Source of the DNA: an uncultured Candidatus Saccharibacteria bacterium
GTDB taxonomy: Bacteria > Patescibacteriota > Minisyncoccia > Phycocordibacterales > Phycocordibacteraceae
DNA: 64,000 nucleotides
Direction of reading: 5' to 3'
Assembly: GCA_964546795.1 (NCBI GenBank)
Contig: CAZJKG010000001.1
Coordinates: forward strand, 61,690-125,689
Part shown: positions 1,368-48,116 of the stretch, in pieces
Position numbering within the stretch: the stretch's first letter is position 1
How the letters are laid out: each line of letters opens with the position of its first letter
Translations under genes and position numbers: made by a program
Notes under the pieces: generated by a model
Database searches by the model: none
Told to the model about the DNA's origin: nothing
The model's input: the letters and a program-made list of their open reading frames with translations, nothing else

Positions 1368-1597
1368 TGAAACCGTTGGGCAGGATTGATTCAAGGAGAT
1401 TTGAAAGGTATTTAATCGCGATTGGTTGCCGCTTCATCAGTCAAGAATCAAGTCACAGAAAGTTCAGAAAAGAAGCGGTTCTTCGCCCAATCATCGTGCC
1501 TTTTACCAATGACTTACCAGATTTTATTATTTTGAATAACTTACGCATCCTAGGAGTAAAGAGGGAGGACTTTATCCGAATCATCAAAAAGCTCTAA
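1367..1597 (+). CDS. hicA: HicA-like mRNA interferase toxin
   Basis: 76 aa. Pattern SHRKF.K....RPIIVPFT...DLPDFIILNNLRILGVKREDFIRIIKK resembles HicA/YcfA (conserved SH, basic patch, C-terminal hydrophobic helix). Paired with hicB. Confidence 0.55.
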   Translation: MKPLGRIDSRRFERYLIAIGCRFISQESSHRKFRKEAVLRPIIVPFTNDLPDFIILNNLRILGVKREDFIRIIKKL

Positions 1598-22344: not shown

Positions 22345-22378
22345 AAGCGTATCGTATCACGCCGTCTTACGCGCACGC

Positions 22379-24064: not shown

Positions 24065-24066
24065 AA

Positions 24067-24207
24067 CTATTCAAGACTTTCTTCGAGTTCGCCTTCTATA
24101 TTAATAACCGTGAATTCCCCTAAGACTACTGTTCTGTAGTAAGTGATAGCGACTGCAATAACCAGTGCGACCAGAATCACGGTAATAAGGGCTCTTTCTT
24201 TACTCAT
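24067..24207 (-). CDS. hypothetical 46-aa membrane peptide
   Basis: MSKERALITVILVALVIAVAITYY... Its stop abuts the kinase start. Confidence 0.2.
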   Translation of the reverse strand: MSKERALITVILVALVIAVAITYYRTVVLGEFTVINIEGELEESLE

Positions 24208-24216
24208 GGTCAATTG

Positions 24217-25149
24217 CTATTCTATCACGCTGGAAACAACAATTGACGATACTGTGAACTTCTTTAAAAAGGAAACTGGTCGATATTTCATCTTTGATTT
24301 TCTCAAATTTTCTATTCCCAAATCCTGTTCAAAATTCCATAAGGTTAATCCCCTGCTGTTTAAATACTTGGCTATCGAGTACAGTAAAAAGTCGTATATT
24401 CCTGTTTTCTGAGTATCAGCTTTCCAGAAATGTCCTATGCAATAGTCATCTGTAAGTATTTCTTCTATGGAAAAAGCAATGGTGTTGGATTCATTCGAGA
24501 TGGTAGTAATGATGAACTTATGATCATTTTTTAATGAATTGAGTAGTCGAGAAAGAGCTATTCTTTCTTTATGAACTTCAAATTCTTTCCCTTTGGCAAT
24601 TTTGTCCGCTCCCCATAAATCAAGAAGATTTAAAATATGATCTTTCAATCCACTTTCGTTTTTATCTTTCACTTCTACATGATACTGCGAATATAGCTCC
24701 GAAAACTTTCTGACGTTTCGTCGCAAATCTTTAAAAGACCCGCCTTCGAGACGACTTAATGATGGGATATCTAAAATATAGTCAAAATTATTGCGGTCCT
24801 CCATAACCAAAAACTCCTTGTTGTTAGAGTCAGGTATCGAGACCTCGGGAATCAATTCTAGTGACTTCAATAGCTCGTGTTTTTCAGCATAGCCAAGTAA
24901 CGATATTATTGTCTCTTCAATTTTGTTACTTCCTAGAAACGAAAGAAACTGTTCACTTGTGGTGTAGTCCGTGAGGCGGGCAACAAGGTTGCCGTTAAGT
25001 TCTGAAACCATGCGCTCGTCACTGGTATCCCACGCCCACAGACTCGTGAAGTTAAAATCTGAATACGGTGGATACTGGCAAGTGTATGACTCGACTGCTT
25101 TCCTATCATTGACCTCAATTTTCTTAAATTCAGGGAACGTGGGAATCAT
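24217..25149 (-). CDS. DUF2156 (MprF C-terminal / LPG_synthase_C-like) domain protein, putative aminoacyl-tRNA-dependent transferase
   Basis: SDFNFTSLWAWD, FDYILD...L.GG.FKDLRRNVRKF, and HFWKAD...GIYDFL......L...G.TLWNFEQDLGIENLRKSK.KY.P match the DUF2156 consensus. The region is AT-rich. Confidence 0.55.
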   Translation of the reverse strand: MIPTFPEFKKIEVNDRKAVESYTCQYPPYSDFNFTSLWAWDTSDERMVSELNGNLVARLTDYTTSEQFLSFLGSNKIEETIISLLGYAEKHELLKSLELIPEVSIPDSNNKEFLVMEDRNNFDYILDIPSLSRLEGGSFKDLRRNVRKFSELYSQYHVEVKDKNESGLKDHILNLLDLWGADKIAKGKEFEVHKERIALSRLLNSLKNDHKFIITTISNESNTIAFSIEEILTDDYCIGHFWKADTQKTGIYDFLLYSIAKYLNSRGLTLWNFEQDLGIENLRKSKMKYRPVSFLKKFTVSSIVVSSVIE

Positions 25150-25153
25150 CGAG

Positions 25154-25546
25154 TTAAACTAGGTTATGCGCTGGATACTTAAGACCTCGTTTGATGAAAT
25201 GGACCTCTACTTCCTCCAGATAGAATTTTTTCTTAAAAAAGTCGACTATAAACTCTTGGTCCATGCCATTTTGGCAGGTGTAAACGTCTGCTGAGACAAA
25301 TCGTCGCTTTGGGAACGTATGAATGCTGATGTGACTTTCTGCGATGATAACGAAGCCACTCCACCCGCCCGAATCTTTGATATGGTTGTCCGGTGCAGGG
25401 ACGACGTGCGGCTTCATGAGCGGACGCATCCGGAGCGCGTCACAAAGCTCGGTAAGAGTAGAGAAAACAGCTTCTTCACTGTCGAGGCGAACCGGATCCC
25501 CGCCATAGCCGTCAATAGTTATATGTTCACCGAAGTGGGCTGCCAT
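25154..25546 (-). CDS. speH: S-adenosylmethionine decarboxylase proenzyme (class 1b, pyruvoyl-dependent)
   Basis: ESHISIHTFPK processing/active-site motif; ~130 aa. Confidence 0.75.
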   Translation of the reverse strand: MAAHFGEHITIDGYGGDPVRLDSEEAVFSTLTELCDALRMRPLMKPHVVPAPDNHIKDSGGWSGFVIIAESHISIHTFPKRRFVSADVYTCQNGMDQEFIVDFFKKKFYLEEVEVHFIKRGLKYPAHNLV

Positions 25547-25626
25547 GCACCTTTATTATATCACCCATTACGTCAACGACAATTTAAAACAAAACCGGCA
25601 ACGATGCGTGTGCATCATTGCCGGCC

Positions 25627-26196
25627 TCAAAACAATTTTACAACCAGGTCATACCCGAGCCAGTTGAGAACTGGAGAAACGTACGGCATGAGCCATCTCC
25701 TGAAAACTTCGATGGCACCAAAGACGAGCGCTCCCCAATACAGATTACTGATCACAATGGCTCCCCAGAAGATCTTCCAGTCTCGTGGGGTCATGGTATG
25801 GTTCTCACTCCCCCGCCGCATATACACGACTGCGATGAACGCGTCGTACTTAATGCAGAGGAAAAGGAAGGCCATAGCGTCGCCACGATCGGCAATTCGC
25901 TGGAAGAACTTTCTGACTTTCCCTGTCGCCTCTCCGTCGCGTACGAGCTTAATCGTCTCAATACCGAGCCAGTCTTGGCCTGTCAGGTCGTAGAACCACA
26001 GGCACCCGAGACAAAGCGCAATTGAGCCGGCGACTGCGTAGAGCCACCCGAGAGCTAGACCATAGACCGCAATAAGATAGGGGTAAACCACGAAGTTGTA
26101 CCCCACTGCCATTGCAGTGTTAGCGGTAAGACCAAGGACTAAGATGCCGATTCGCTTCCAGAAGCGAATCGGGTGATTCGCTTTCTCGAGCGCCAT
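25627..26196 (-). CDS. hypothetical polytopic membrane protein
   Basis: 4-5 predicted TM helices, no motif recognised. Confidence 0.4.
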   Translation of the reverse strand: MALEKANHPIRFWKRIGILVLGLTANTAMAVGYNFVVYPYLIAVYGLALGWLYAVAGSIALCLGCLWFYDLTGQDWLGIETIKLVRDGEATGKVRKFFQRIADRGDAMAFLFLCIKYDAFIAVVYMRRGSENHTMTPRDWKIFWGAIVISNLYWGALVFGAIEVFRRWLMPYVSPVLNWLGYDLVVKLF

Positions 26197-37584: not shown

Positions 37585-37674
37585 GATAGTTGGACTTGGC
37601 CTCTCGAACCGGAGCGACCAATTTTTCTTGCCTGTACTCAGGATTAGAAAAATGGAAGTGCTCTTGTGGTGCGC
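37585..37674 (-). repeat. intergenic repeat family A, copy 2 (reverse orientation)
   Basis: Its reverse complement aligns to 3580-3671 with about 80% identity, including a compensatory GCCCG/CGGGC -> CCTG/CAGG stem change. Confidence 0.7.
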
Positions 37675-37717
37675 TAGCTTTTTCTGCTTTGCTCGTGAAC
37701 GGCTATACTGTAAAGGT

Positions 37718-38011
37718 ATGAAATCCATCCGTGACATTCTCCCCGATATCAGGAAAAAGGCGGCCGCCGCGCCGAAAGGAAGGAAACGGCAGACGGAACG
37801 CGGCGAGCTGATGCGTTTCTTCCTCCGCCACTTAAATCATTCCCGCGCGCACGATGGTCTCGCGCCCATGACTATGGCGCATCTGGGCACCGTCCTTGAG
37901 AAAATACCCACGCAAGACCTCTACTACCTCAAGAGCGTGTGCAGCCAGGCAAAGAATTTCGGCAAAAAATTCTGGTGGGAATTGGATCCAACAAAACATC
38001 TGTCCCGCTGA
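37718..38011 (+). CDS. hypothetical protein (97 aa)
   Basis: ATG preceded by AAAGG and a TATACT box. Basic, no motif. The track ORF upstream of this ATG is a translation of repeat A. Confidence 0.3.
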   Translation: MKSIRDILPDIRKKAAAAPKGRKRQTERGELMRFFLRHLNHSRAHDGLAPMTMAHLGTVLEKIPTQDLYYLKSVCSQAKNFGKKFWWELDPTKHLSR

Positions 38012-38171: not shown

Positions 38172-39578
38172 ATGAAAGAAATCGTGCAAGATGGCACGCC
38201 AGTGTTGCGCGATATCGCATTGCCCGTGCCCGAGGATCTCTTCGGCACCCCGGAGCTCGTGCATCTCATCAAGGACATGGAGGAGGCGCTCGACAAAGAG
38301 ACCGAGGGCGTCGCACTCGCCGCGCCGCAAATAGGAGTGTCGTACCGCGTCTTCATCGTAAGGAAAGACAGAACCCGTCCTTCGCCAAAGGCTACGGAGG
38401 GCACAGCACTTCCCCTACACGCGCCGCGAAGCGGCGCGTCGGGCAAACTTTTAGCGGAGTCGGAAGTTTTAGCCCCCGAAATAGAGGTCTTTATCAATCC
38501 CGAGATTGTAAAGACCTCCCGCAAGCGAGCAAAGACAGACGAAGGATGTCTCTCGGTTCGCGGCGTGTACGGCACGACCAACCGGCACGAACGCGTTACC
38601 ATCCGCGCCCGTCGTCCTGACGGCTCTAAACTAACGCGCGGCGCCGGCGGACTCTTGGCGCAAATATTCGAACATGAAATAGACCATTTGAACGGCATCC
38701 TCTTTATTGACCATGCCGAACATCTCATTCACATAAAGCGTCAATTGGAGCATCGCTTCGCCTATTTCGGTACGCCCCATGTCGCGAGCGATACGCTTGC
38801 CATTCTCATCGAACGCGGGTTTGTACCTTCCGTCGTTGTAACTTCTCCGGACGCGCCGAAAGGTCGGGGTCTTGCTCTTGCACCGTCCGAAACGAAAAAG
38901 CTCGCGCTTGTACACGGTATCCCCGTCATGACTCCGGAAAAATTAGACGCAAATGCAATCGCTGAGATAAATACATTCGCATGCGACTATGCCGTCGTCG
39001 TCGCCTACGGCAAGATATTTCCCGAAGAGCTTATAACCGCATTCCCCCGAGGCGTGGTAAATGTCCATTATTCACTTCTGCCGAAATATCGCGGAGCGAC
39101 ACCGCTTGAGACGGCTCTCCTTTCGGGCGACACGGAGACCGGCGTGACTATACAAGAAATGGTGCGTGAACTTGATGCGGGCGACATCATTGCGCAGAAG
39201 ACCACCGAAATTGCGCTGTTTGAGACCGCGCGCGAGCTGCGAGCGCGACTCATCGATATGGGAGCTTCCCTGCTTGCCGACACTCTCCCCGAATACGCAG
39301 CGGGGCGCATTGAGCCAGTTCCGCAAGACGCCTCCCGCGTCACGCGCACGAGGAAACTCAAAAAAGAAGACGGGCTTCTCTCACTTGATGCTCCTGCCGA
39401 AGTGAACTGGAACAAATACCGCGCATATGCCGACACTATCGGCACCTATTTCTTTGATCCGCCAATCGGCGGAGGTAAGCGAATTAAAATAACGGCGGCC
39501 TCATTTAAAAACGGGGTATTTGTCATCGAGCGCGTCATTCCCGAAGGTAAACGCGAGATGAACTACTCCGCGCGGTAA
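38172..39578 (+). CDS. bifunctional peptide deformylase / methionyl-tRNA formyltransferase fusion (Def-Fmt)
   Basis: The N-terminal half carries PDF motifs G.A.PQIG, EGCLSVRG and HEIDHLNG. The C-terminal half carries Fmt motifs (FGTP, HYSLLPKYRGATP, a C-terminal domain). It is a single uninterrupted 468-codon frame. Confidence 0.8.
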   Translation: MKEIVQDGTPVLRDIALPVPEDLFGTPELVHLIKDMEEALDKETEGVALAAPQIGVSYRVFIVRKDRTRPSPKATEGTALPLHAPRSGASGKLLAESEVLAPEIEVFINPEIVKTSRKRAKTDEGCLSVRGVYGTTNRHERVTIRARRPDGSKLTRGAGGLLAQIFEHEIDHLNGILFIDHAEHLIHIKRQLEHRFAYFGTPHVASDTLAILIERGFVPSVVVTSPDAPKGRGLALAPSETKKLALVHGIPVMTPEKLDANAIAEINTFACDYAVVVAYGKIFPEELITAFPRGVVNVHYSLLPKYRGATPLETALLSGDTETGVTIQEMVRELDAGDIIAQKTTEIALFETARELRARLIDMGASLLADTLPEYAAGRIEPVPQDASRVTRTRKLKKEDGLLSLDAPAEVNWNKYRAYADTIGTYFFDPPIGGGKRIKITAASFKNGVFVIERVIPEGKREMNYSAR

Positions 39579-39637
39579 ACCTTAAAAAAGGTAGCGCTCC
39601 GGGCCGCTAGGCCAAGTCCTACTACCTTTTTTAAGGT
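39579..39637 (+). terminator. 16-bp perfect-stem hairpin whose loop is the repeat-A core; bidirectional terminator between fmt and hpf
   Basis: ACCTTAAAAAAGGTAG-[CGCTCCGGGCCGCTAGGCCAAGTCCTA]-CTACCTTTTTTAAGGT, starting 1 nt after the fmt stop. Confidence 0.6.
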
Positions 39638-39655
39638 TTGCCGGCTCCGTAAAAT

Positions 39656-40018
39656 TCAGCGGCCAAAGCGCAGCATCCGCTTGAGCGCAGCGCCGCCGCG
39701 CCTCAGCAGTCGTCGAGTGCGCCCGCGCGAACGCCGTATCTCGGCTTCAAGCTCACTGCGGACCCTGTCCGCAGCGCTCTCGGGAGACGGCTTCACCGCC
39801 TCTGCATGAAAGACCTGTCCGTCCACCGTAAGCCGCGCGACGAGGCGGCAGGGCTCCGACGAACGGCCCTCAGGCGGCGCCTCCTCTATCTCTATCTCAA
39901 GTAATGCCGTATCACCTTTCTCGCCAAGAAGGCGTAGTGGGGCCGCAAGTTTTTCTTCAAGGATCGCTTCCGTCTCTGGAGTAAGTCGGTACTTCGTTGC
40001 TTTGATGGTGATATTCAT
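39656..40018 (-). CDS. hpf: ribosome hibernation promoting factor / RaiA family
   Basis: MNITIKATKYRLT...I..KL........ matches the HPF/YfiA N-domain. Basic C-terminal tail. Confidence 0.7.
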   Translation of the reverse strand: MNITIKATKYRLTPETEAILEEKLAAPLRLLGEKGDTALLEIEIEEAPPEGRSSEPCRLVARLTVDGQVFHAEAVKPSPESAADRVRSELEAEIRRSRGRTRRLLRRGGAALKRMLRFGR

Positions 40019-40031
40019 GACGGGGCAAATG

Positions 40032-40271
40032 TCAGTTGTTAATACTGATCATCTTAGCGCGTGAACGGTGTCCTGTCAGTATGCGCACCTTTCCGAGGGG
40101 CTTTCCGAATCGCTTGGCCAGTATCTCGCGCACGCGATCATTCGCACGGTTCCCGAGTGCGGGCTCCCTCACTGATATCGCAAGCATCTCGCCTTCTTCC
40201 GCGCCTTTGGCGGGATGAACCTCAATCTTCTCGCGCTTAGCGTCCGGTGTGACAAATACTTTGATATACAT
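40032..40271 (-). CDS. DUF167 (YggU) family protein
   Basis: IKVFVTPDAKREKIE......L.ISV.EPA..GRAN.....ILAK.FG.....V.ILTGHRSR.K matches the YggU pattern. Confidence 0.6.
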   Translation of the reverse strand: MYIKVFVTPDAKREKIEVHPAKGAEEGEMLAISVREPALGNRANDRVREILAKRFGKPLGKVRILTGHRSRAKMISINN

Positions 40272-40360
40272 AATCAGTATCGTAACACCGCGTCGGCACA
40301 TCCATTGCGACATGTGATTTTTCAGTTAGAATGTGGACACGCCCTCTTTACGGGGGTTTA

Positions 40361-40440
40361 AAACATTCCGGGATAGCTCTCCGCCGGCTGGCGGAGGTAG
40401 AGCGGTTACAATCCGGGGTCGAGAGTTCGTTCGTAAACAT
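40361..40440 (+). other. tRNA-like fragment: duplicated 5' portion (acceptor + D-arm start) of the downstream tRNA
   Basis: AAACATTCCGGGATAGCTC recurs as AAACATATTCCGGGATAGCTC at 40435-40455. No matching 3' acceptor strand. Confidence 0.5.
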
Positions 40441-40442
40441 AT

Positions 40443-40735
40443 TCCGGGATAGCTCAATGGTAGAGCAGCGCCCTGTGGCTTACGCAGCTTTTCAGAGGAA
40501 TCTGGATCGAATAACGAGGTGAATTGCTGGAAACCCTTCGTGGGCAATCAGCAGCCAAGTCCCGCCGTCGGCTGGAAAGGTTCAGAGACTATCCCGAAAG
40601 GGAGTACTGTCCCGATGTAAAGTCGGAATGGGAAGCGCCTCGCACCGAGAAACGGTGATGATATAGTCCATCCCTTTTGGAAACTTAAGGAGCGATGTAA
40701 GGCGTTGGTTGCAGGTTCGAGTCCTGCTCCCGGAG
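40443..40735 (+). tRNA. tRNA (anticodon read as GTT, Asn) interrupted by a ~221-nt group I intron in the anticodon loop
   Basis: Exon 1 (40443-40476) and exon 2 (40698-40735) form a clean cloverleaf: acceptor TCCGGGA/TCCCGGA, D arm GCTC-AATGGTA-GAGC, anticodon stem GCGCC/GGCGT, loop CTGT^TAA, T arm GCAGG-TTCGAGT-CCTGC. Confidence 0.7.
40477..40697 (+). ncRNA. group I self-splicing intron
   Basis: 5' exon ends in U and the intron ends in G. Internal CAGCAGCCAAGTCC, GGTTCAGAGACTA and ATGTAAAGTCGGAATGGG resemble conserved P4/P7 core segments of Tetrahymena/cyanobacterial tRNA group I introns. Too short to encode a homing endonuclease. Confidence 0.65.
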
Positions 40736-40969
40736 CTAGAAAAAGTTAGGCCCTGATGCGGACAGCATTGGGGTCTTACTTTTTCTCTCCGCGGACAGGA
40801 CTCGAAAGCGAGCGCGGGTACCAGTCGAGCACGACTGGTCGCGCGAGGCGGCTCGCGAAATACTGGAGCGACGGCGACAGTATTTTGTGAGAGAGATGCG
40901 TACTCGCGATCCTGCTCCCGGAGCAAAATAACCGTAGGTCGGTTCAAGATGGCACTTTAGGGTGCTATT

Positions 40970-41326
40970 TTGCTACAATTGAGAATAATGGAAAACAAAT
41001 ATCAGAGTGAAATAACAGTGCTACTCAAGCAAGTTCGTCCAAGACTTTCCACCACACACCAATTAGAATTCAAAAATGTATTTGGTGCAGTTGGTGGTTA
41101 TATCAACGGGCACATATTTATTTCGTGTGGAAAGTTTGGAGTTGCGCTTCGGCTTCCGCCGGAAACTCTTGACCAACTTTTTCACGAAAAGAAAGCAAAA
41201 CGCCTTAAATATTTTCCCAAAGGACATATCAAAAAAGAGTATGCGGTGCTTTCAAAACAAGTGCTTGAAAATAAACAAAGGCTGAAAAAACTCGTGGATG
41301 AAAGTATTAAATTTGTGGTAAAATGA
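40970..41326 (+). CDS. TfoX N-terminal domain protein (Sxy/TfoX competence-regulator family, N-domain only)
   Basis: FKNVFGAVGGYINGHIFISCGKFGVALRL, then KYFPKGHIKKEYAVL, matching the TfoX_N pattern. Confidence 0.55.
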   Translation: MLQLRIMENKYQSEITVLLKQVRPRLSTTHQLEFKNVFGAVGGYINGHIFISCGKFGVALRLPPETLDQLFHEKKAKRLKYFPKGHIKKEYAVLSKQVLENKQRLKKLVDESIKFVVK

Positions 41327-41366
41327 AAAGGTCGAAAACATAAATTAACAACTAATCAAAAACATT

Positions 41367-41546
41367 ATGAAGACACTTACATGTGACCTGTGCGAAGTGG
41401 CAGCGGAAGGTGAGACATTTGAGGCATGGATGAAAGCACTTCACCCTCATTATATGGAGGTCCACGCAGATGTTATGAAAAACTCTAAAGAAGGAGATGA
41501 GCAGAAATGGATGGTGGAAAACAAAGCAAGATTTGACGCTGTCTAA
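41367..41546 (+). CDS. DUF1059-like small metal-binding protein (59 aa)
   Basis: MKTLTCDLCEVAAEGETFEAWMKALHPHYMEVH resembles the DUF1059 pattern (MK.F.C...C.F...GET.EE.......H....H). Not in the ORF track because it is under 60 aa. Confidence 0.4.
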   Translation: MKTLTCDLCEVAAEGETFEAWMKALHPHYMEVHADVMKNSKEGDEQKWMVENKARFDAV

Positions 41547-41575
41547 AACGTACATAAAAAATCTTCTAGCGCATC

Positions 41576-41875
41576 ATGCCAAAGAATACTTACAAGATGC
41601 GTTCAAAAGTATGGCCGTATCCCGGTATGGCGGCATGGCGATTCCTCACTCTGGCAAAAAAGCAGGGGCAGGAAATAAAAAAGAAATTTGGTCGATATGC
41701 CAGAGGATGGGGTTCACTCCCCGTTTCGGTAGCTATAGGAACAACGGTCTGGAACACTTCGATTTTTCCTGATAAGAAGTCAGGGTCGTATGTCCTTCCA
41801 CTCAAGGCGAAGATAAGAAAGATTGAGAACATATCCGACCACTCAACCGTGTCGTTTGTTCTAACGTTACGATAG
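41576..41875 (+). CDS. DUF1905 domain protein
   Basis: GWGSLPVSVAIGTTVWNTSIFPDKKSGSYVLPLKAKIRK matches DUF1905. The true start may be at an internal Met. Confidence 0.55.
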   Translation: MPKNTYKMRSKVWPYPGMAAWRFLTLAKKQGQEIKKKFGRYARGWGSLPVSVAIGTTVWNTSIFPDKKSGSYVLPLKAKIRKIENISDHSTVSFVLTLR

Positions 41876-41907
41876 TAACCTCTATCTTTCCATATCGGTT
41901 AGATTAG

Positions 41908-42096
41908 GTGATGACTGAACGTATAACATTGAAATTATTCTGGATGATGATGCTGTTGTGCGCGGGGTCGGCGCTAACCCTTATCTGGGTGGGCGACGTT
42001 TTTCCGGAGAAAATCGTCCCCACCTTCTTTATCTTAGGTTTCGCGAGCTTCTTAATTTGGGCACCCCTGGTTATCTACCGATTCTTGGCAAAATAG
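41908..42096 (+). CDS. hypothetical 2-TM small membrane protein
   Basis: Two hydrophobic helices, no motif. Confidence 0.25.
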   Translation: MMTERITLKLFWMMMLLCAGSALTLIWVGDVFPEKIVPTFFILGFASFLIWAPLVIYRFLAK

Positions 42097-42124
42097 CGGT
42101 TTTGGATAAAAACGATTCTTTCAT

Positions 42125-42376
42125 TCAACGATGAATGCATCCGGCCCAACAACAAGGTCGGCGTATCCCTTCTATAAGTTCCGTACGTGTCCTCTCGATG
42201 CGGTGACTCCTCGTCTCCGGTTTTTTGGCGGACATAATCCAGCAAATCCATTCATTGCGTGCGAGCGGAGTAATATCTTCCCATGCCGCTCGCGCCGTTG
42301 GAGCCGAAATAAAGGTCTTTCGTAAATCCGCTGGCATCCTGTGTACCGCACCAGTAGCGATTCCTTTTTTGGTCAT
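42125..42376 (-). CDS. YdeI/OmpD-associated (OmdA) domain protein
   Basis: PADLRKTFISAPTARAAWEDITPLARNEWICWIMSAKKPETRSHRIERTRTELIEG matches OmdA. Has an extra Cys-rich C-terminal tail. Confidence 0.55.
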   Translation of the reverse strand: MTKKGIATGAVHRMPADLRKTFISAPTARAAWEDITPLARNEWICWIMSAKKPETRSHRIERTRTELIEGIRRPCCWAGCIHR

Positions 42377-42445
42377 AGGATTACTTTATCAAATTCTCTC
42401 GGTCATGGCGGTTCGAACATTCTCTATCTAGCGGGGCCAAACAAT

Positions 42446-42922
42446 TCAATCACCCAGATCAAGCAGCTTCACTGGCTTCATCACGGCTTTGGGGTTTTGT
42501 TTCCATTCGTCCGACACATCTGCATAGAGTTCAAGTTCGTTAGCATCCGGATCAAGTATGTAGATGCTGTGCGTGACAGTATGATTGCCGGTGCCTACGA
42601 TCGTGACACCTTTTTCTTTCAGTTCACGATATGCTTGCTTCGCATCGTCGGTTGAATTGCCTATCTTGAATCCAATATGGTAAAGACCGGGAGTCGGAAA
42701 TCCCCTTTGGATCGGACTTCCACCGACTTCAATGAGCAACAATTCGTGATGGGTTCTCCCGGAAGAAAATAATGCCATCCCTCCATCACGATGAATCTCA
42801 TGAAAACCTAATGTATTACGGTAGAAGTCAGCTGAACGCTTTAGGTTAGAAACATAGAGAACGACATGGCCAAGTTCCTTAATCTGCATGGGATCATTGT
42901 ACCCTTTTACGGGTCCGAACAT
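42446..42922 (-). CDS. VOC (glyoxalase/bleomycin-resistance/dioxygenase) family protein
   Basis: LGHVVLYVSNLKRSADFYRNTLGF ... HIGFKI, matching the VOC beta-alpha-beta-beta-beta modules. Confidence 0.7.
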   Translation of the reverse strand: MFGPVKGYNDPMQIKELGHVVLYVSNLKRSADFYRNTLGFHEIHRDGGMALFSSGRTHHELLLIEVGGSPIQRGFPTPGLYHIGFKIGNSTDDAKQAYRELKEKGVTIVGTGNHTVTHSIYILDPDANELELYADVSDEWKQNPKAVMKPVKLLDLGD

Positions 42923-42956
42923 TCCTTATCCGGCAAAGTAAAGGTTGGTGTAGAAT

Positions 42957-43757
42957 GTGCCCATGGCGGATACCCGTACCGAACAGAAGAATAATAAAAT
43001 CTGGGAGAATGTCTTGGTGAGAGGTGTGCATAAATTTAATAGAGCACGGTCTTTGTTCAGATATATTCCCTCCAATCCGCGCTGCCGCATGTGCAATGCG
43101 CCGTTCGGGAATATCGGAGCGCCGATAATGCGCTGGTTCTATAACAAGCGCCCTTCAAACCGCAACCCGAACTTCTGCAATTTCTGCGAGACCATGGCGA
43201 GAGACAATCCCGGTGGAGCGGAAGTGGAACTCTCCATGCTTTTCGCTGATATCCGCAACTCCACAGGGCTTGCTGAGACCATGGACGCGACGATGTTCAG
43301 AAGTTTGTTGAACCGTTTTTATGAGGTTTCCAGCAATGCACTCGTCAACACCGATGCGATGATAGACAAGCTTGTGGGAGATGAAATCATCGGCCTCTAT
43401 ATTCTCGGTATTGCGGGACCGAATCACGCCCAAAAGGCGCTTCAGGGGGCAAAGGATATACTTCAGAAAACCGGGCACGCCGACCAAGGCGGGCCGTGGC
43501 TGCCGGTGGGTGTCGGTATCCACACCGGCATTGCCTTCGTGGGGTCAGTGGGATCAACGGACAGTTTCCTTGATTTCACCGCATTAGGAGACGCCATGAA
43601 TACTACGGCGCGCATCGCAAGCAAAGCGGGAGCGGGAGAGATTTTAATGAGCGACACTGCGTTCCGTGCGGCGCATCTTGAAAACGATGCGGAAGAACGT
43701 GTATTGGAATTAAAAGGAAAAAGCCAGCCGGTTATCGTTCGCGTCCTGCATAGTTAA
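42957..43757 (+). CDS. class III adenylate/guanylate cyclase with N-terminal 4-Cys zinc-ribbon
   Basis: CHD motifs LFADIRNST, KLVGDEIIGLY, GVGIHTGIAFVGSVG and ALGDAMNTTARI. N-terminal CRMC...17...CNFC. Confidence 0.8.
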   Translation: MPMADTRTEQKNNKIWENVLVRGVHKFNRARSLFRYIPSNPRCRMCNAPFGNIGAPIMRWFYNKRPSNRNPNFCNFCETMARDNPGGAEVELSMLFADIRNSTGLAETMDATMFRSLLNRFYEVSSNALVNTDAMIDKLVGDEIIGLYILGIAGPNHAQKALQGAKDILQKTGHADQGGPWLPVGVGIHTGIAFVGSVGSTDSFLDFTALGDAMNTTARIASKAGAGEILMSDTAFRAAHLENDAEERVLELKGKSQPVIVRVLHS

Positions 43758-43762
43758 TGAAT

Positions 43763-45019
43763 TTACGCTGCATATTGCGGACGTTGGCGTCCATATACGA
43801 AAAATAATAAAGCCAAGAGCGCCACGCATGATAAGGTGGCGCCAAACATGAATGGGGCCGCCGGACTCACTTTTTCCCATAATAAGCCGGCAATAATACT
43901 CGCGGGAAGTGCGATGACCCCGAGGGCAGCATTGTAGATGCCATACGCCCGCCCGCGATGATCCGCAGGCACCATGTCCGCCACAAACGCTTTTGCAACC
44001 CCTTCGGTAGTCGCATAATACAGACCGTAGAATGCAAAGAGGATCCATATCTGGTAGCTCGCGCTCGCGAACGCAAATCCTGCGTACGCGAGCGCGTAGG
44101 CGAGCCAGCCGAGCATGATGACTTTTTCTCTCCCGATCCGATCCGACAGAGTCCCGAGCGGCACGGATGCGACCGCATAGACGAAATTGAAAAGCGCGAA
44201 GACAAGCGGAATCGCAAGGAGTGTGACTCCAAGGTTCTGTGCTCTCAAAATAAGGAAAGCGTCAGAGGAATTTCCCAGGCCGAACAGCAACATAATGCCG
44301 AGGAATATATAGAAGGAACGTGGGAGAGCTACTTTCACTCCGGTCTCCATTGCTTTGTTCTGTACAGGACTCTCTTGCACTTTGAACTTCAATATCAGGA
44401 GCGTGATGACAAGAGGTATCGCTGTGATGAGAAGTATGATGTGGTATTTCGCCACACTGTCTTGCAGCAGATAGAGCAACCCGAAGAGTGCGAGCGGGCC
44501 GATGACCGAACCAAACGTATCGAGCATGCGCGCGATGCCGAATCCCCTACCGCGGTTATGTGCCTGCGTAGAATCCGCAATAAGGGCATCCTTGGGAGAA
44601 TCCTTCATTCCCTTTCCGATGCCGTCGAGGAAGCGGAGGCCGAGAATAAGGCCGCTTGATGCAGTAAGGGCAAGCATCGGCCGAGCGATGAGCGAAAAGA
44701 AATAGCCGAGGAATATGAATGGTTTTTTCTTTCCGAGACGATCGACAAAAAAGCCCGAAAGTATTTTAAACACACTCGCCCCGCTTGTGACCAAACCCTC
44801 GGAAATGCCGATGAACACTTTGTCGAAACCCAGTACGTTTGTAAGATAGAGTGGAAGGATAGGGATGAAGATATCTTGGCTGATACCGCCAAAGAAACTC
44901 AAGAGACCAATGTAGAATACGTTCCCCGCTTTTTTCTTTTCCGTAACGTCTTTAATCTCATGCATGCATAAAAGTATAGCTTTTAATATGTACGTATCCA
45001 AAATCCTGCTCCGCCCCAC
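43763..45019 (-). CDS. MFS transporter
   Basis: 12 predicted TM helices, and an MFS loop 2-3 motif (DRLGKKK). Confidence 0.75.
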   Translation of the reverse strand: MGRSRILDTYILKAILLCMHEIKDVTEKKKAGNVFYIGLLSFFGGISQDIFIPILPLYLTNVLGFDKVFIGISEGLVTSGASVFKILSGFFVDRLGKKKPFIFLGYFFSLIARPMLALTASSGLILGLRFLDGIGKGMKDSPKDALIADSTQAHNRGRGFGIARMLDTFGSVIGPLALFGLLYLLQDSVAKYHIILLITAIPLVITLLILKFKVQESPVQNKAMETGVKVALPRSFYIFLGIMLLFGLGNSSDAFLILRAQNLGVTLLAIPLVFALFNFVYAVASVPLGTLSDRIGREKVIMLGWLAYALAYAGFAFASASYQIWILFAFYGLYYATTEGVAKAFVADMVPADHRGRAYGIYNAALGVIALPASIIAGLLWEKVSPAAPFMFGATLSCVALLALLFFVYGRQRPQYAA

Positions 45020-45795
45020 ATCGGGATATATTTCCCCATTTTCGTCCGCTTGATGGAAAGTGCAAATGCTTTGCTGTGGAGTGATACACCGATACGGCCC
45101 GCAAGCGAGCGCATATAGGTTCCCGAGGCACAGGTTATCTTTAAGCGAAGTACGGCGAAACTCCTTGTATGCACGATTTTAAAAAGCGACTTCCAGTGCA
45201 CACGAACGGCATCTACGCGAAAATCTTCTCCAAGCCGCTTTGACGGCTCATCGGTGCGCGGAACGAGATCAAGAAATTTCGATACTCTTGCCTCAAGTTC
45301 TGTATCGGAAATTATATATGAGCCCTGATGCTGAATTCGATAGATACGCTCCACATGCTTAGGTATTTTTATGTGCGAAAGCGTTCCTTCAAGTGCATGG
45401 AGAAAGAGAGGTTTACCATTCACGGTCTTCGAAGAAAATGTGGGGTACGCACGCATATGCGCGCCACGTTCGCGATACAGTGCATCGGTAAGAATACCTG
45501 TATCTACGAGTGTTTCTTTATCAGCGTACTCTGGTATACCGAGCACATCACCCGTATCGCTCCCCATATCGAGTAAAACCTCGATCTCATATTCTTTATC
45601 CAGATCCATATACGCGCGCTGCTGTTTGCACTCATCTCCCAGAAGCACGAGTAGTTTACCGCATGCCATCGGGTCCAGACGGCCTGCATAACATACTGGT
45701 ACATCGGTATACTTTTGATTCCGTATCTTCCATGTCCGTATCGCCGCAAGCGGTGTCTCACCCACTTTTTTATCCAATACTACAAATCGTCTCAT
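44983..45795 (-). CDS. truB: tRNA pseudouridine(55) synthase TruB-like
   Basis: FVVLDKKVGETPLAAIRTWK and the catalytic AGRLDPMACGKLLVLLG. Start taken at the internal ATG; the track ORF begins at a GTG inside the inverted-repeat element. Confidence 0.7.
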   Translation of the reverse strand: MRRFVVLDKKVGETPLAAIRTWKIRNQKYTDVPVCYAGRLDPMACGKLLVLLGDECKQQRAYMDLDKEYEIEVLLDMGSDTGDVLGIPEYADKETLVDTGILTDALYRERGAHMRAYPTFSSKTVNGKPLFLHALEGTLSHIKIPKHVERIYRIQHQGSYIISDTELEARVSKFLDLVPRTDEPSKRLGEDFRVDAVRVHWKSLFKIVHTRSFAVLRLKITCASGTYMRSLAGRIGVSLHSKAFALSIKRTKMGKYIPMWGGAGFWIRTY

Positions 45796-45861
45796 TTTGT
45801 GCGCAGTATACCTTGTGAGATAAACTATATCGGGGTTCTTAATAAGCAGGAAATTCTTGTT

Positions 45862-46037
45862 CACAAACTTTGAATTACGAAACTCTCATGAGCGACCGTC
45901 CGCAGGCGCTGAGCTCTGGTGTTTTTTGGCTATACTGCGCGGAGCAAGCCAAAAAACTCAGCGCCGAGGACAGAGCGACGAGCCGCTGGAGCGAGCTCGC
46001 GTGTCGCACGGGAGAGTTTCGTAATTCAAAGTCACAA
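45862..46037. mobile_element. MITE-like element: 21-bp perfect terminal inverted repeats flanked by 5-bp direct repeat CACAA
   Basis: CACAA-ACTTTGAATTACGAAACTCTC ... GAGAGTTTCGTAATTCAAAGT-CACAA. The interior holds a further imperfect hairpin (GCGCTGAGCTCTGGTGTTTTTTGGC / GCCAAAAAACTCAGCGCC). Non-coding. Confidence 0.5.
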
Positions 46038-46094
46038 ATCAATCGTGAAGCGCGGGATTGATATAATGAATAGTTCGTGGTATTATGAGCGACA

Positions 46095-46322
46095 ATGAAG
46101 CGGCCCGATATAGACAAAGAAAGGAGTGAGAAATCACTTTCTCTTTCGAGCTTCCTAAAGTCCTATAATGAGGGTCTTCCGTTGGCATTTCCACGAGCTT
46201 CCCTGTCACTCCTGCGAGAGTTCAGGAAGGCACACAAAACAATCTTCAAGGGCACCGATTCGTGGTCGCTCGATCAGCACCGAAAGAAAGTGATGGATTG
46301 GCTTCCTTCTCTATCAACCTAA
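46095..46322 (+). CDS. hypothetical protein (75 aa)
   Basis: ORF only, in the gap before mltG. Confidence 0.15.
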   Translation: MKRPDIDKERSEKSLSLSSFLKSYNEGLPLAFPRASLSLLREFRKAHKTIFKGTDSWSLDQHRKKVMDWLPSLST

Positions 46323-46363
46323 TAACTCTCAACGAGAAAACGTATCTTCATTAAGCAAAACAA

Positions 46364-47494
46364 TTGTTTCTTAATGGAGGATTTGCCGTTATACTAGTAG
46401 CGGTAGCAATTATTACATCTGTGGAACTTATACCTCCTTCGTATTCAAGGAATCGTCTCAAACACACAAAAAAAGGTGGGATGCACTACATTTTTACACT
46501 GCTCGGTCGCACGGTGCTGTTCGGAGTTATGTTGGGAGGCATTGTATTTTCGTTTCCCGTGCTGCTTGCTCTGAATATAGAGCGCGAACAGAATCAGAGT
46601 ATTTCTGCGGCACCCGAGCAGTTCCCTATCACGGTTGATCCTGGCAATAAAATCATTGTTGAAAACGCACAAGTGAATACTTTTTTTGAGAACACGTATT
46701 CTCCGCTTCAAGCGGCAGCCGGAAATGTCCAACATATACTGGGGAATGTATTTGAATGGATTGCTCTCTCTATCGCTGCGGCGCCGCAGTATCAAAGCAT
46801 TGCAGCGGTAGATGGTCGCTTTGTTGCTATTGAGCCAGGCATGAGAAAAGAACAAGTGACGAACATTTTTGCGAACACGCTTGCGTGGAATGCCAAGCAG
46901 AAAAAGGAATTTGTAACTGCGGAAACGGACTCGTCGCTTCCGCTTCCTGAAGGTTCATTCGCGCCAGGTGTCTATTCCGTTACAATGGGTGCAACGCCGG
47001 CCATAGTACAAAATCTTGTGAACGAACGCTTTTATAAGGATGTCATCTCCCATTACGGCCCAGAGACGGCTAGTATTGTGCCACTTGATCAAGCGCTCAC
47101 CATTGCTTCGCTTATTGAACGAGAGGCGGGAGGACCTGACGACATGCGCATCATATCTGGCATCATCTGGAATCGACTTTTTATTAGCATGAATCTTCAA
47201 ATAGATGCGACGCTCCAATACGCAAAAGCGAACAGTAGAGCAGGCGGGAGCTGGTGGCCGCGGATAGTGCCTGCGGATAGATTCCGTGCATCGCTCTATA
47301 ACACCTACTTACATCCGGGCCTGCCACCGACTCCCATATCAAATCCATCGGTGGCTTCCATACTAGCCGCCCTCAATCCAAGAAATACTTCATGTCTTTT
47401 CTATTTCCATGATGCGATGGGAGGATTCCATTGCACTCCCACATATGCCGAGCATGTCACACTTCTAAAGAAATATTATGGACGAGGAAAATAA
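46364..47494 (+). CDS. mltG: endolytic murein transglycosylase MltG (YceG family)
   Basis: N-terminal TM and a YceG core (ASLIEREAGGPDDMRIISGIIWNRL..M.LQIDATLQYA ... YNTY.HPGLPPTPISNPS ... FYFH). Confidence 0.8.
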   Translation: MFLNGGFAVILVAVAIITSVELIPPSYSRNRLKHTKKGGMHYIFTLLGRTVLFGVMLGGIVFSFPVLLALNIEREQNQSISAAPEQFPITVDPGNKIIVENAQVNTFFENTYSPLQAAAGNVQHILGNVFEWIALSIAAAPQYQSIAAVDGRFVAIEPGMRKEQVTNIFANTLAWNAKQKKEFVTAETDSSLPLPEGSFAPGVYSVTMGATPAIVQNLVNERFYKDVISHYGPETASIVPLDQALTIASLIEREAGGPDDMRIISGIIWNRLFISMNLQIDATLQYAKANSRAGGSWWPRIVPADRFRASLYNTYLHPGLPPTPISNPSVASILAALNPRNTSCLFYFHDAMGGFHCTPTYAEHVTLLKKYYGRGK

Positions 47495-48116
47495 ATCATC
47501 GGTACTTTGGGTATCTGTTTGGATTGTGTTGTTTCTATGTCTTACTTTCCTCACGATAGAGGTGGTGATATCTCAGAGTTTTATAGTTGCTGCTGATGTG
47601 TGGTTTGAAAATGTGCTGCTTAGCGTTCGTACCCCCTTTCTTATACATGTCTTTGCTTGGATAACTCTTTTGGGGAATGCTTTTGTCGCCATGGGAATAG
47701 CGGGGATTGCTCTGATATTTTTATTGTGGAAGCGCTACAAAGCATACGCAGTAGGACTTGCTATCACACTTATCGGCGCTGCTGCCACAGATTATGTGAT
47801 GAAAGCCATCATAGAACGCGCACGACCGGATGGTCTCATTCCCTCCATGGTTGAAACCTCATTTTCCTTTCCAAGCGGACATGCTACCGCCGCAATGGCT
47901 CTCTATGGTTTTATGGCGTACGTCCTTTGCAATCTTTTCCCTGAGAAAAAAACAGTCCTAGTGACCGCGGCTGTGCTCATCATAGGGAGCATCGGCTTCA
48001 GCAGATTGTATTTGGGTCTGCACTTCCCTAGCGACGTGCTCGCCGGCTACATTCTTGGGGGTCTTTGGCTCCTCATAGGAATCGCAGCGGCAAAAAGAGT
48101 TTCCGACTATCAATAG
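47478..48116 (+). CDS. PAP2 family phosphatase (undecaprenyl-diphosphatase-like)
   Basis: KAIIERARP, PSGH and SRLYLGLHFPSDV motifs, with 5-6 TM helices. Confidence 0.7.
   Translation: MDEENKSSVLWVSVWIVLFLCLTFLTIEVVISQSFIVAADVWFENVLLSVRTPFLIHVFAWITLLGNAFVAMGIAGIALIFLLWKRYKAYAVGLAITLIGAAATDYVMKAIIERARPDGLIPSMVETSFSFPSGHATAAMALYGFMAYVLCNLFPEKKTVLVTAAVLIIGSIGFSRLYLGLHFPSDVLAGYILGGLWLLIGIAAAKRVSDYQ

What the first reader, a model, noticed from the sequence alone, without database searches (positions are those of the whole stretch)
38172..39578. Peptide deformylase and Met-tRNA formyltransferase fused into one 468-aa protein
def and fmt are normally adjacent but separate genes. Here the PDF motifs (GVSYRVFIV region/G..APQIG, EGCLSVRG, HEIDHLNG) and the Fmt motifs (HYSLLPKYRGATP, C-terminal tRNA-binding domain) lie in one uninterrupted frame. 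A ~40-aa low-complexity insertion sits in the PDF domain between motifs 1 and 2. The fusion would couple formylation and deformylation physically. If real across the lineage it is a lineage marker.
Basis: partly seen in the sequence, partly recalled or inferred. Interest (0 to 1): 0.6.

Follow-up and report, generated by a model that had tools for sequence, protein, structure and literature searches.

The report
Real, recurrent def–fmt gene fusion
The enzyme that formylates the initiator methionine (Fmt) and the enzyme that later removes the formyl group (PDF) are genuinely encoded as one protein here, but the same fusion has arisen repeatedly in related small-genome bacteria through a one-base deletion in overlapping genes and is already known, and shown functional, in Exiguobacterium, so it is a modest evolutionary curiosity rather than a new system.

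Summary
The 468-aa ORF at 38172..39578 (+) exists exactly as described. It carries a complete peptide deformylase domain (aa 1-187) joined by a ~15-aa linker to a Met-tRNA formyltransferase (aa 196-468). It is not an assembly artefact. More than 120 distinct relatives (66-100% identity, from many independent assemblies) have the same frame. Both halves are under purifying selection, and the start and stop codons that separate the genes in relatives are gone.

The closest non-fused relatives (64-71% identity, same synteny) have def and fmt overlapping by 17 nt, with fmt in the +1 frame. The fused form is exactly 1 nt shorter, so the fusion came from a single-base deletion inside that overlap.

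The fusion is not a clean lineage marker. Fused and separate states are interleaved within the window's clade. Only 12 of 80 Paceibacteria species representatives are fused, with unrelated junctions. In an exhaustive search, 41 of the 150 best 50%-identity representatives are fusions, including Exiguobacterium, Bacillota MAGs and Nealsonbacteria.

A def-fmt fusion was reported and shown functional in Exiguobacterium in 2025. The "low-complexity insertion" is a disordered surface loop of variable length that evolves almost neutrally.

Verdict: real, a new member of a known kind, modest interest.

The parts
38172..39578 (+). Fused def-fmt ORF, 468 aa plus TAA stop
   Evidence: Exact protein found on ENA contig k139_648605.
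38172..38732 (+). Peptide deformylase domain (aa 1-187), ending in a predicted beta-strand (aa 183-187) rather than a C-terminal helix
   Evidence: PF01327 136.8 bits; NF001159 and TIGR00079 above cut-off; AF2 model; Foldseek 3g5k TMt 0.79; dN/dS 0.03-0.21.
38307..38330 (+). PDF motif 1, GVALAAPQ (aa 46-53). Ala replaces the canonical second Gly.
   Evidence: Read directly from the sequence. Invariant in 120 relatives. The canonical and updated motifs are given in PMC12690207.
38376..38477 (+). Variable, disordered loop insertion (aa ~69-102) between PDF motifs 1 and 2
   Evidence: pLDDT below 50 for aa 72-99; length varies from about 8 to 45 aa; dN/dS 0.4-0.95; absent from the Exiguobacterium fusion.
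38541..38555 (+). PDF motif 2, EGCLS (aa 124-128; metal-binding Cys126)
   Evidence: Read directly from the sequence. Invariant.
38673..38687 (+). PDF motif 3, HEIDH (aa 168-172)
   Evidence: Read directly from the sequence. H168, E169 and H172 invariant.
38712..38756 (+). Junction/linker (aa 181-195, HAEHLIHIKRQLEHR). It corresponds to the former 3' tail of def and the 5' end of fmt, which overlapped by 17 nt. The fusing 1-nt deletion lies here.
   Evidence: Comparison with non-fused relatives at nucleotide level; pLDDT below 50 at aa 189-191; dN/dS 0.16-0.40.
38757..39281 (+). Fmt N-terminal (Rossmann-type formyltransferase) domain, aa 196-370
   Evidence: PF00551 121.8 bits; TIGR00460 201.1 bits; PDB Fmt chains E 1e-35 to 7e-41; Foldseek 4iqf/2fmt TMt ~0.8.
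38841..38897 (+). Fmt 'loop 1' insertion (aa 224-242, TSPDAPKGRGLALAPSETK), the element that recognises the initiator-tRNA acceptor end in E. coli Fmt
   Evidence: Aligns without gaps to the Exiguobacterium Fmt loop; T224, D227, G233 and K242 invariant. The role of this loop is from memory of the 2FMT work.
39060..39095 (+). Fmt catalytic/SLLP motif NVHYSLLPKYRG (aa 297-308; N297, H299). The catalytic Asp335 is at 39174-39176.
   Evidence: Read directly from the sequence. N297, H299 and D335 invariant.
39342..39575 (+). Reduced Fmt C-terminal (tRNA-binding) domain, aa 391-468, about 30 aa shorter than in E. coli or Exiguobacterium
   Evidence: PF02911 matched only at profile positions 1-48 of 100, 17.4 bits, below cut-off; full domain in Exiguobacterium; the same short tail in Fmt-only relatives; dN/dS 0.10-0.21.
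39570..39645 (.). Long perfect hairpin flanked by A and T runs, between the convergent def-fmt (+) and hpf (-) genes. Probably a bidirectional terminator.
   Evidence: RNA fold -44.5 kcal/mol, z = -6.65, 0 of 200 shuffles fold as well; terminator-like site on the minus strand at 39609-39592.

Best explanation
The ORF encodes one bifunctional polypeptide, with an N-terminal peptide deformylase and a C-terminal methionyl-tRNA(fMet) formyltransferase.

Origin. It arose in a Kaiserbacteria-like (Paceibacteria, Patescibacteria) ancestor in which def and fmt were translationally coupled. The fmt ATG lay in the +1 frame, 17 nt before the def stop codon. A single-base deletion inside or just upstream of that overlap joined the def frame to the fmt frame. 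The now useless ATG and TAA were subsequently lost.

Function (inferred). Each domain keeps its own catalytic machinery and most likely works independently. Fmt formylates Met-tRNAfMet before initiation, and PDF deformylates nascent chains. The main consequence is obligatory 1:1 co-synthesis in the order Def then Fmt. That order is harmless and perhaps mildly protective, because Fmt can never be made without PDF.

Recurrence. The genes are packed so tightly in this phylum that one indel or one stop-codon change is enough to fuse them, and the product works. The fusion therefore recurs and persists.

Shown: the ORF, the domains, conservation, purifying selection, the 1-nt difference, and recurrence. 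Inferred: both activities, the independence of the domains, and near-neutrality.
For: Single stop-free frame with both domains.

All 120 best database hits (66-100% identity; ncbi, ena, jgi and Logan sources) are 437-490 aa with both Pfam domains. The junction consensus is conserved, and catalytic residues are invariant: C126, H168, E169, H172, N297, H299, D335.

dN/dS is 0.03-0.23 for both catalytic halves among fused genomes.

Non-fused relatives with the same murA-orf-def/fmt-hpf-DUF167 synteny have an HExxH-to-SLLP spacing of 388 nt, against 387 nt in fused ones. They have an ATG...TAA overlap of 17 nt. The fused junction reads in the def frame up to 'IPH' and in the fmt frame from 'HxF'.

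The window has no stop in the alternative frame and no conserved start codon near the junction, so it is not simply 'the ancestral sequence plus a sequencing error'.

The AF2 model is confident for both domains (pLDDT 84) with a short linker. Its folds match Fmt (TMt 0.8) and PDF (TMt 0.79).

Against: There is no experimental or read-level evidence for this particular gene.

PDF motif 1 has Ala where the canonical and 'updated' motifs have Gly. This holds lineage-wide, in fused and non-fused forms alike.

The TIGR00460 score (201.1) is 0.4 bits below its cut-off (201.5), and the Fmt C-terminal tRNA-binding domain is reduced. Activity levels could therefore differ from model enzymes.

The inter-domain geometry is uncertain (pTM 0.59), so steric interference or cooperation cannot be judged.

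Whether these genomes carry a second PDF, as Exiguobacterium does, was checked only within the 64-kb window, where none was found.

The trees are neighbour-joining only, and dS is near saturation.
Confidence: 0.8

Rival explanations
1. The fusion is adaptive functional coupling. Tethering either brings Fmt to the ribosome-bound PDF, or lets the tRNA-binding Fmt domain replace the missing PDF C-terminal ribosome-docking helix. Alternatively, it acts as a selected failsafe ensuring that formylation capacity never exceeds deformylation capacity in genomes with little regulation.
For: The fusion recurs many times: 12 of 80 species representatives with unrelated junctions, and 41 of the 150 best 50%-identity representatives. 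The order is always Def then Fmt. The PDF part lacks the type-1 C-terminal helix that docks E. coli PDF on uL22/uL32 and ends in a beta-strand feeding directly into Fmt (PMC12690207 and PMC8712518). The linker is under moderate constraint (dN/dS 0.16-0.40). The viability of the E. coli delta def-fmt strain (PMC12690207) fits the idea that PDF is needed mainly when Fmt is active.
Against: Recurrence is equally expected from the tiny mutational target combined with near-neutrality. Sister species do well with separate genes. The non-fused relatives have the same short PDF C-terminus, so the fusion does not compensate for a loss. Linker sequences and lengths are not conserved between independent fusions. 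The Def-then-Fmt order simply mirrors the operon order.
Confidence: 0.13
2. The ORF is fused at the DNA level, but two separate proteins are still made, either by internal initiation for Fmt or by proteolytic cleavage in the linker.
For: The window has an in-frame TTG (Leu191) 5 codons before the first Fmt strand, and L006 has a GTG at a similar place. The linker is predicted flexible (pLDDT below 50 at aa 189-191).
Against: No start codon is conserved at the junction in the other fused loci (L001-L005, L007), and the ancestral ATG has been lost in all of them. No Shine-Dalgarno-like sequence precedes the TTG. The Exiguobacterium fusion works as a single CDS (PMC12690207), though its product size was not reported in the text read.
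Confidence: 0.04
3. Assembly or sequencing artefact: a spurious 1-nt deletion in this contig merged two real genes.
For: The fused and separate arrangements differ by exactly one base. No reads were available to check.
Against: The same frame occurs in more than 120 distinct sequences from many assemblies and pipelines, and in 8 species-representative genomes of the clade. The window lacks both the def stop codon and the fmt ATG that every non-fused relative has. Restoring a base would leave def without a nearby stop. The linker is under purifying selection in the fused frame. The contig comes from a short-read-style assembly.
Confidence: 0.02
4. One of the two domains is catalytically dead and the protein is effectively monofunctional, for example a PDF weakened by the motif-1 Gly-to-Ala change, or an Fmt crippled by its reduced C-terminal domain.
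For: Motif 1 deviates from both the canonical and the updated consensus. PF02911 and TIGR00460 fall just below their cut-offs.
Against: Both deviations are shared by the non-fused relatives, in which these are the only def and fmt genes seen at the locus. All metal-binding and catalytic residues are invariant. dN/dS is far below 1 in every structured segment. No second copy exists in the window.
Confidence: 0.02

Closest known systems
Exiguobacterium Def-Fmt fusion (e.g. WP_021067074.1; E. alkaliphilum gene tested in PMC12690207, Mol Biol Evol 2025)
   Same: Same domain order (PDF, then Fmt-N, then Fmt-C) in one CDS. Short linkers of similar length (11 vs 14 residues between 'LFxD' and the first Fmt strand). 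Collinear alignment at 37% identity over 379 aa, straight through the junction. [quoted passage not shown]
   Different: Independent origin: the linker sequence is unrelated, and the window protein's nearest relatives are unfused. Exiguobacterium lacks the ~33-aa disordered loop, has Gly in motif 1, has a full-size Fmt C-terminal domain (PF02911 positions 1-99 of 100), and reportedly also has a second PDF. The phylum and genome type also differ (Bacillota vs Patescibacteria).
Canonical def-fmt operon with two separate, co-transcribed genes (E. coli; Meinnel & Blanquet 1993, as cited in PMC12690207)
   Same: Same two enzymes, same gene order, and tight translational coupling. The window's closest non-fused relatives are an extreme form of this, with a 17-nt overlap.
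   Different: Here the stop and start signals are gone and a single polypeptide is encoded.
Type 2 peptide deformylases (Gram-positive type)
   Same: The C-terminus is predicted as a beta-strand rather than the type-1 alpha-helix (type definitions in PMC12690207). There is extra sequence in the hairpin between motifs 1 and 2; that type 2 PDFs carry an insertion at this site is from memory.
   Different: The loop here is much longer, disordered and hypervariable. Motif 1 carries Ala for Gly. The C-terminal strand continues into another enzyme. PDF type was not tested phylogenetically.
Other multidomain proteins built on the Fmt-like formyltransferase module (ArnA; 10-formyl-THF dehydrogenase)
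   Same: The Formyl_trans_N plus Formyl_trans_C module is fused to a second catalytic domain. These appear as structural and sequence neighbours.
   Different: In those proteins the formyltransferase module is N-terminal and the partner is a dehydrogenase or decarboxylase acting in the same pathway. Here the module is C-terminal and retains the Fmt-specific tRNA loop. The two activities act on different macromolecular substrates.

Membership tests
Peptide deformylase (PF01327 / TIGR00079, EC 3.5.1.88) | Profile HMM match above the curated cut-off | tested here: met
   PF01327 136.8 bits (cut-off 22.8). NF001159 129.6 (cut-off 125) and TIGR00079 107.9 (cut-off 103.95).
Peptide deformylase (PF01327 / TIGR00079, EC 3.5.1.88) | Motif 1, G-phi-G-phi-A-A-x-Q (updated form: phi-G-phi-A-A-x-Q) | tested here: inconclusive
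   The sequence is GVALAAPQ, with Ala at the second Gly. This is invariant in 120 relatives and shared by non-fused Paceibacteria (the scan pattern [ED]GVA[LI]AAPQ matched about 600 loci). PMC12690207 notes that exact motif conservation is not essential.
Peptide deformylase (PF01327 / TIGR00079, EC 3.5.1.88) | Motif 2 EGCLS and motif 3 HExxH (metal ligands Cys, His, His; catalytic Glu) | tested here: met
   E124-S128 and H168-H172 are present and invariant.
Peptide deformylase (PF01327 / TIGR00079, EC 3.5.1.88) | PDF fold | tested here: met
   AF2 pLDDT about 85-95 outside the loop. Foldseek match to human mitochondrial PDF 3g5k, TMt 0.79, E 1.6e-14.
Peptide deformylase (PF01327 / TIGR00079, EC 3.5.1.88) | Deformylase activity on N-formyl-Met peptides | not testable with these tools
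   Needs an enzyme assay or complementation.
Methionyl-tRNA formyltransferase (TIGR00460, EC 2.1.2.9) | Equivalog HMM at or above the cut-off | tested here: inconclusive
   201.1 bits against a cut-off of 201.5. The shortfall comes from the truncated C-terminal domain (profile positions 4-229 of 315 matched). It is by far the best formyltransferase model; the next scores 122.6 bits.
Methionyl-tRNA formyltransferase (TIGR00460, EC 2.1.2.9) | Catalytic Asn/His/Asp and the HxSLLPxxRG motif | tested here: met
   N297, H299, D335 and SLLPKYRG are invariant.
Methionyl-tRNA formyltransferase (TIGR00460, EC 2.1.2.9) | Fmt-specific loop-1 insertion in the Rossmann fold (recognises the initiator-tRNA acceptor stem) | tested here: met
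   aa 224-242 align without gaps to the Exiguobacterium Fmt loop and are conserved. The role of the loop is from memory of the E. coli 2FMT complex. Zambryskibacteria-type fusions lack it.
Methionyl-tRNA formyltransferase (TIGR00460, EC 2.1.2.9) | Complete C-terminal beta-barrel tRNA-binding domain (PF02911) | tested here: not met
   Only profile positions 1-48 of 100 matched, at 17.4 bits, below the 21.1 cut-off. The domain is about 78 aa and about 30 aa shorter than in Exiguobacterium or E. coli. Foldseek still aligns ~296 columns to Fmt chains at TMt 0.8. The same reduction is seen in Fmt-only relatives.
Def-Fmt 'multifunctional fusion protein' (Exiguobacterium type) | PDF and Fmt domains in one uninterrupted ORF, PDF first | tested here: met
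   and collinear alignment.
Def-Fmt 'multifunctional fusion protein' (Exiguobacterium type) | Common descent of the fusion event (homologous junction) | tested here: not met
   Linker sequences are unrelated. The window's nearest relatives are unfused with a 17-nt overlap. So this is the same architecture with an independent origin.
Def-Fmt 'multifunctional fusion protein' (Exiguobacterium type) | Both activities supplied by the single polypeptide (rescue of delta def-fmt) | not testable with these tools
   Shown only for the E. alkaliphilum gene (PMC12690207).

The most novel reading that the evidence does not exclude
Recurrent Def-Fmt fusion in Patescibacteria is selected rather than neutral. 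The single polypeptide would couple the two ends of the formyl cycle. One route is docking Fmt at the ribosome through the PDF domain, or the PDF domain through the tRNA/rRNA-binding Fmt C-domain; this would replace the missing PDF C-terminal docking helix. The other route is a hard-wired failsafe in which Fmt is never made without PDF, in organisms with minimal regulation. If so, the hypervariable disordered loop and the constrained linker would be parts of that adaptation.
Probability: 0.12. Interest if true: 0.55.

Novelty: new member of a known kind. Interest (0 to 1): 0.3.

Why it matters
The finding gives a clean, nucleotide-level example of how overlapping, translationally coupled genes become a bifunctional protein. 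A single base is lost inside a 17-nt overlap, and this has happened repeatedly in one phylum.

It extends the recently described Exiguobacterium def-fmt fusion to the Patescibacteria (CPR). There it is common but patchy, and it is annotated inconsistently as either 'peptide deformylase' or 'methionyl-tRNA formyltransferase'.

Practically, it warns against two errors. The fusion should not be used as a phylogenetic marker. Genome-completeness or essential-gene surveys that count one name per gene may score one of the two genes as missing.

It also offers natural constructs for asking whether the PDF C-terminus must be free for ribosome docking.

Tried and rejected
(1) First frame test. I assumed the tblastn match ranges were single-frame, which gave misleading 'stops'. 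I replaced it with a stop-to-stop, motif-based analysis.

(2) The top-120 protein hits all being fused looked like universality. This is a ranking bias, because full-length matches score highest. The genome loci showed that most relatives are unfused.

(3) The Def+Fmt-only NJ tree could not resolve whether the fused members share a single origin. Adding the syntenic MurA, ORF127 and DUF167 resolved a 100%-supported mixed clade. Horizontal transfer of the fused gene cannot be excluded, but Def/Fmt identities are too flat (67-78%) to show it.

(4) I looked for the Exiguobacterium sequence in the paper's supplements and it is not held there. I recovered it through the representative search and a cluster look-up.

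(5) The first cluster look-up returned no names.

(7) A literature search for the UniProt label 'Multifunctional fusion protein' together with PDF found nothing. A search for 'def-fmt' plus 'fusion' found only the 2025 paper as relevant.

(8) No conserved internal start for Fmt was found.

(9) No sigma-70-like promoter was found upstream beyond chance.
Full report
OBSERVATION. The window contains an uninterrupted ATG-initiated ORF at 38172..39578 (+) of 468 codons. Pfam places a full peptide deformylase domain at aa 1-184 (PF01327, E 6e-40) and a formyltransferase N-domain at aa 199-370 (PF00551, E 4e-35). There is a weak, half-length match to the Fmt C-terminal domain (PF02911, aa 395-446, profile positions 1-48 of 100). 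NCBIfam names the two halves peptide deformylase (NF001159 and TIGR00079, both above cut-off) and methionyl-tRNA formyltransferase (TIGR00460, 201.1 bits against a cut-off of 201.5). The only correction is that the insertion between PDF motifs 1 and 2 is about 33 residues, not 40.

IS IT REAL OR AN ARTEFACT? A search of 5.8 billion proteins returned 120 best hits at 66-100% identity. All are 437-490 aa with both Pfam domains, they come from NCBI, ENA, JGI and Logan assemblies, and they are labelled Patescibacteria, Paceibacterota, Kaiserbacteria or Parcubacteria. Alignments of 20 and 120 of them show a conserved junction (consensus ...HLNGILFIDHAEHLIRIPHxxxHxFAYFGTP...). The catalytic residues of both enzymes are invariant: C126, H168, E169, H172; N297, H299, D335. 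Among fused genomes, dN/dS is 0.03-0.21 for the PDF core, 0.06-0.23 for Fmt-N, 0.10-0.21 for Fmt-C and 0.16-0.40 for the linker. dS is near saturation, so these values are rough. The exact protein lies on a 173-kb contig of ENA assembly ERZ27284378 whose name has the style of a short-read assembler. An assembly error is excluded for practical purposes.

HOW IT AROSE. Scanning one genome per GTDB species gave at least 574 related loci, of which the best 80 were examined. A stop-to-stop analysis that locates PDF motifs 2 and 3 and the Fmt SLLP motif showed three arrangements. Only 12 loci are fused. In 36, fmt is in a different frame (nearly always +1). In 30, a stop lies between the two genes in the same frame. 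One of the remaining two loci (L066) is cut off by the contig end, and in the other (L079) def lies about 1.3 kb upstream of fmt.

The closest non-fused relatives (64-71% identity) share the window's synteny, murA - small ORF - def/fmt - hpf(-) - DUF167(-). Their HExxH-to-SLLP distance is 388 nt, against 387 nt in the fused loci. At nucleotide level, def in these relatives ends ...I-P-H-E-P-D-A-stop. Meanwhile fmt begins at an ATG embedded in the His/Glu codons, 17 nt before the end of the def stop (M-N-P-T-H-N-F-I-Y-F-G-T-P). The 17-nt overlap recurs in L018, L024, L028, L030 and L031. By inspection it is also present in L011, L012, L022 and L025.

The fused proteins read I-P-H-G-x-x-H-x-F-x-Y-F-G-T-P. 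That is the def frame up to 'IPH' and the fmt frame from 'HxF', in a sequence one base shorter. Both the ATG and the TAA have since been lost. The window itself has no stop in the alternative frame for more than 25 codons, and no conserved start. What it documents is the evolutionary mechanism: a 1-nt deletion inside an overlap of translationally coupled genes.

IS IT A LINEAGE MARKER? No. In a Def+Fmt NJ tree the window groups with L001, L002 and L007 (86% bootstrap). All eight fused members of the clade were never monophyletic (0 of 300 replicates), on an unresolved backbone. Adding the syntenic MurA, ORF127 and DUF167 (1028 columns) gave a 300/300 clade containing two fused (L003, L005) and two separate (L011, L028) genomes. 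Within it, L003+L028 has 93% support. MurA identities within that group are 84-88%, against 74-78% to the others. Reverting a fusion would require re-creating a frame shift, a start and a stop, so I infer several independent fusions (at least 3-4) within this family alone. Transfer of the fused gene cannot be excluded.

Outside the family, L008, L034 and the Zambryskibacteria-like L060, L075 and L080 are fused with unrelated linkers. An exhaustive profile search of 1.84 billion 50%-identity representatives put the whole window-type clade into one cluster (P0061). Of the best 150 representatives, 41 are fusions with very different linkers, 102 are Fmt-only and 6 are PDF-only. Named members include Exiguobacterium (64-member cluster; UniRef 'Multifunctional fusion protein'), Bacillota/Fermentithermobacillaceae MAGs and Candidatus Nealsonbacteria.

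The reason for recurrence is visible in the non-fused loci. The genes either overlap by 8-23 nt or are separated by 0-15 nt, often by a single in-frame stop. One indel or one point mutation is therefore enough to fuse them.

ANATOMY AND LIKELY FUNCTION. An AlphaFold2 model from the 120-sequence alignment has mean pLDDT 84 and pTM 0.59. Both catalytic domains are confident. Residues 72-99 are disordered (pLDDT about 30), and residues 189-191 form a low-confidence hinge. The model matches Fmt crystal structures (4iqf, 2fmt, 5uai; TMt about 0.8) and PDF (3g5k; TMt 0.79). No solved chain covers both halves.

The loop at aa 69-102 varies from about 8 to 45 residues among relatives. It evolves almost neutrally (dN/dS 0.4-0.95) and is absent from the Exiguobacterium protein. 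It is a variable surface loop, not a functional module.

The PDF part ends in a short beta-strand (aa 183-187) rather than the type-1 C-terminal helix that docks E. coli PDF between uL22 and uL32 (PMC12690207, PMC8712518). The non-fused relatives have the same short tail, so this is a lineage trait and not a consequence of fusion.

The Fmt part keeps the Fmt-specific loop 1 (aa 224-242) but has a reduced C-terminal domain. This reduction is also shared with Fmt-only relatives.

PDF motif 1 is GVALAAPQ, with Ala for the canonical Gly. This is lineage-wide. PMC12690207 reports that exact motif conservation is not required for activity.

No second PDF or Fmt is encoded in the 64-kb window. A very stable hairpin (-44.5 kcal/mol, z = -6.65) follows the stop codon and probably terminates both convergent transcripts.

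MECHANISM. My best-supported reading (confidence about 0.8) is a bifunctional polypeptide whose two domains act independently on their usual substrates. Fusion gives obligatory 1:1 co-synthesis in the order Def then Fmt. [quoted passage not shown] That both activities survive such a fusion is shown experimentally only for the independent Exiguobacterium fusion, which rescued delta def-fmt. For the window protein it is inferred from residue conservation and purifying selection. Direct physical 'coupling' of the two reactions is unlikely, because initiation and elongation separate them in time and substrate. An adaptive role (ribosome tethering or a failsafe) remains possible but unsupported.

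COMPARISON AND NOVELTY. The closest known entity is the Exiguobacterium Def-Fmt fusion. It has the same architecture and a similar linker length, and it is 37% identical and collinear through the junction. Its origin is independent. It lacks the disordered loop, has a canonical motif 1 and has a full Fmt C-domain. Full-text searches found no description of def-fmt fusions in Patescibacteria, or of their origin from overlapping genes. However, such proteins are already deposited and auto-labelled in public databases. I therefore class the finding as a new member of a known kind, with modest interest (0.3).

LIMITS. There is no read-level check and no experiment. The trees are NJ only, and dS is saturated. 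The sample of 80 loci is biased towards the best matches to a fused query. Whole genomes could not be scanned for paralogues. The inter-domain geometry is not reliably predicted.

Noticed in passing
window 40443-40736 (+); intron approx. 40477-40697; Rfam hit 40480-40690: A tRNA-Asn(GUU) gene is interrupted in its anticodon loop by a 221-nt group I intron (RF00028, 81.6 bits). Default ARAGORN and the Rfam tRNA model missed the gene; ARAGORN with intron search found it. The syntenic tRNA-Asn is uninterrupted in 10 relatives, while L008, L013 and L032 have a group I intron hit at the equivalent place. The distribution is patchy, so the intron is possibly mobile.
   Followed up: partly
window 40366-40379 and ~40908-40926 (+): A second copy of the tRNA 5' end (TTCCGGGATAGCTC, followed by a GC-rich hairpin where the D-loop would be) lies upstream of the tRNA-Asn. 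A tRNA 3'-end-like sequence (GATCCTGCTCCCGGAGCA) lies downstream. These could be remnants of a duplicated tRNA or an oddly organised one.
   Followed up: no
L060:2851-4311, L075:2953-4302, L080:2980-4284: The Zambryskibacteria-type Def-Fmt fusions lack the ~20-aa Fmt loop-1 insertion (TSPDAPKGRGL...IPV becomes TSAREP--LPV) that recognises the initiator tRNA in E. coli Fmt. They also have FFGA/FFGS instead of FGTP at the N-terminus. Their formyltransferase half may recognise its substrate differently.
   Followed up: partly
window 37628-38011 (+) (the gene caller uses a shorter 97-aa version): A small ORF with no Pfam match lies between murA and def-fmt. It is conserved (57-94% identity) at the same position in 25 of 27 related loci. 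It is a conserved hypothetical protein of this lineage.
   Followed up: partly
window 39656-40018 (-) and the syntenic position in L007, L012, L013, L014, L024, L031: The hibernation-factor-like gene (PF02482) downstream of def-fmt comes in two very different versions among otherwise close relatives: 74-93% against 36-41% identity to the window's copy. This suggests replacement or rapid divergence at that locus.
   Followed up: no
window 38307-38330 and about 600 related loci: PDF motif 1 carries Ala instead of the conserved second Gly (GVA[LI]AAPQ) throughout these Paceibacteria, fused or not. This deviates even from the relaxed motif proposed in PMC12690207.
   Followed up: partly
window 1-2000, 22001-26000, 40001-48000: Patches of lower G+C (0.43-0.50) stand against a background of about 0.53-0.56. 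The third patch begins at the tRNA-Asn/TfoX region just downstream of the locus.
   Followed up: no
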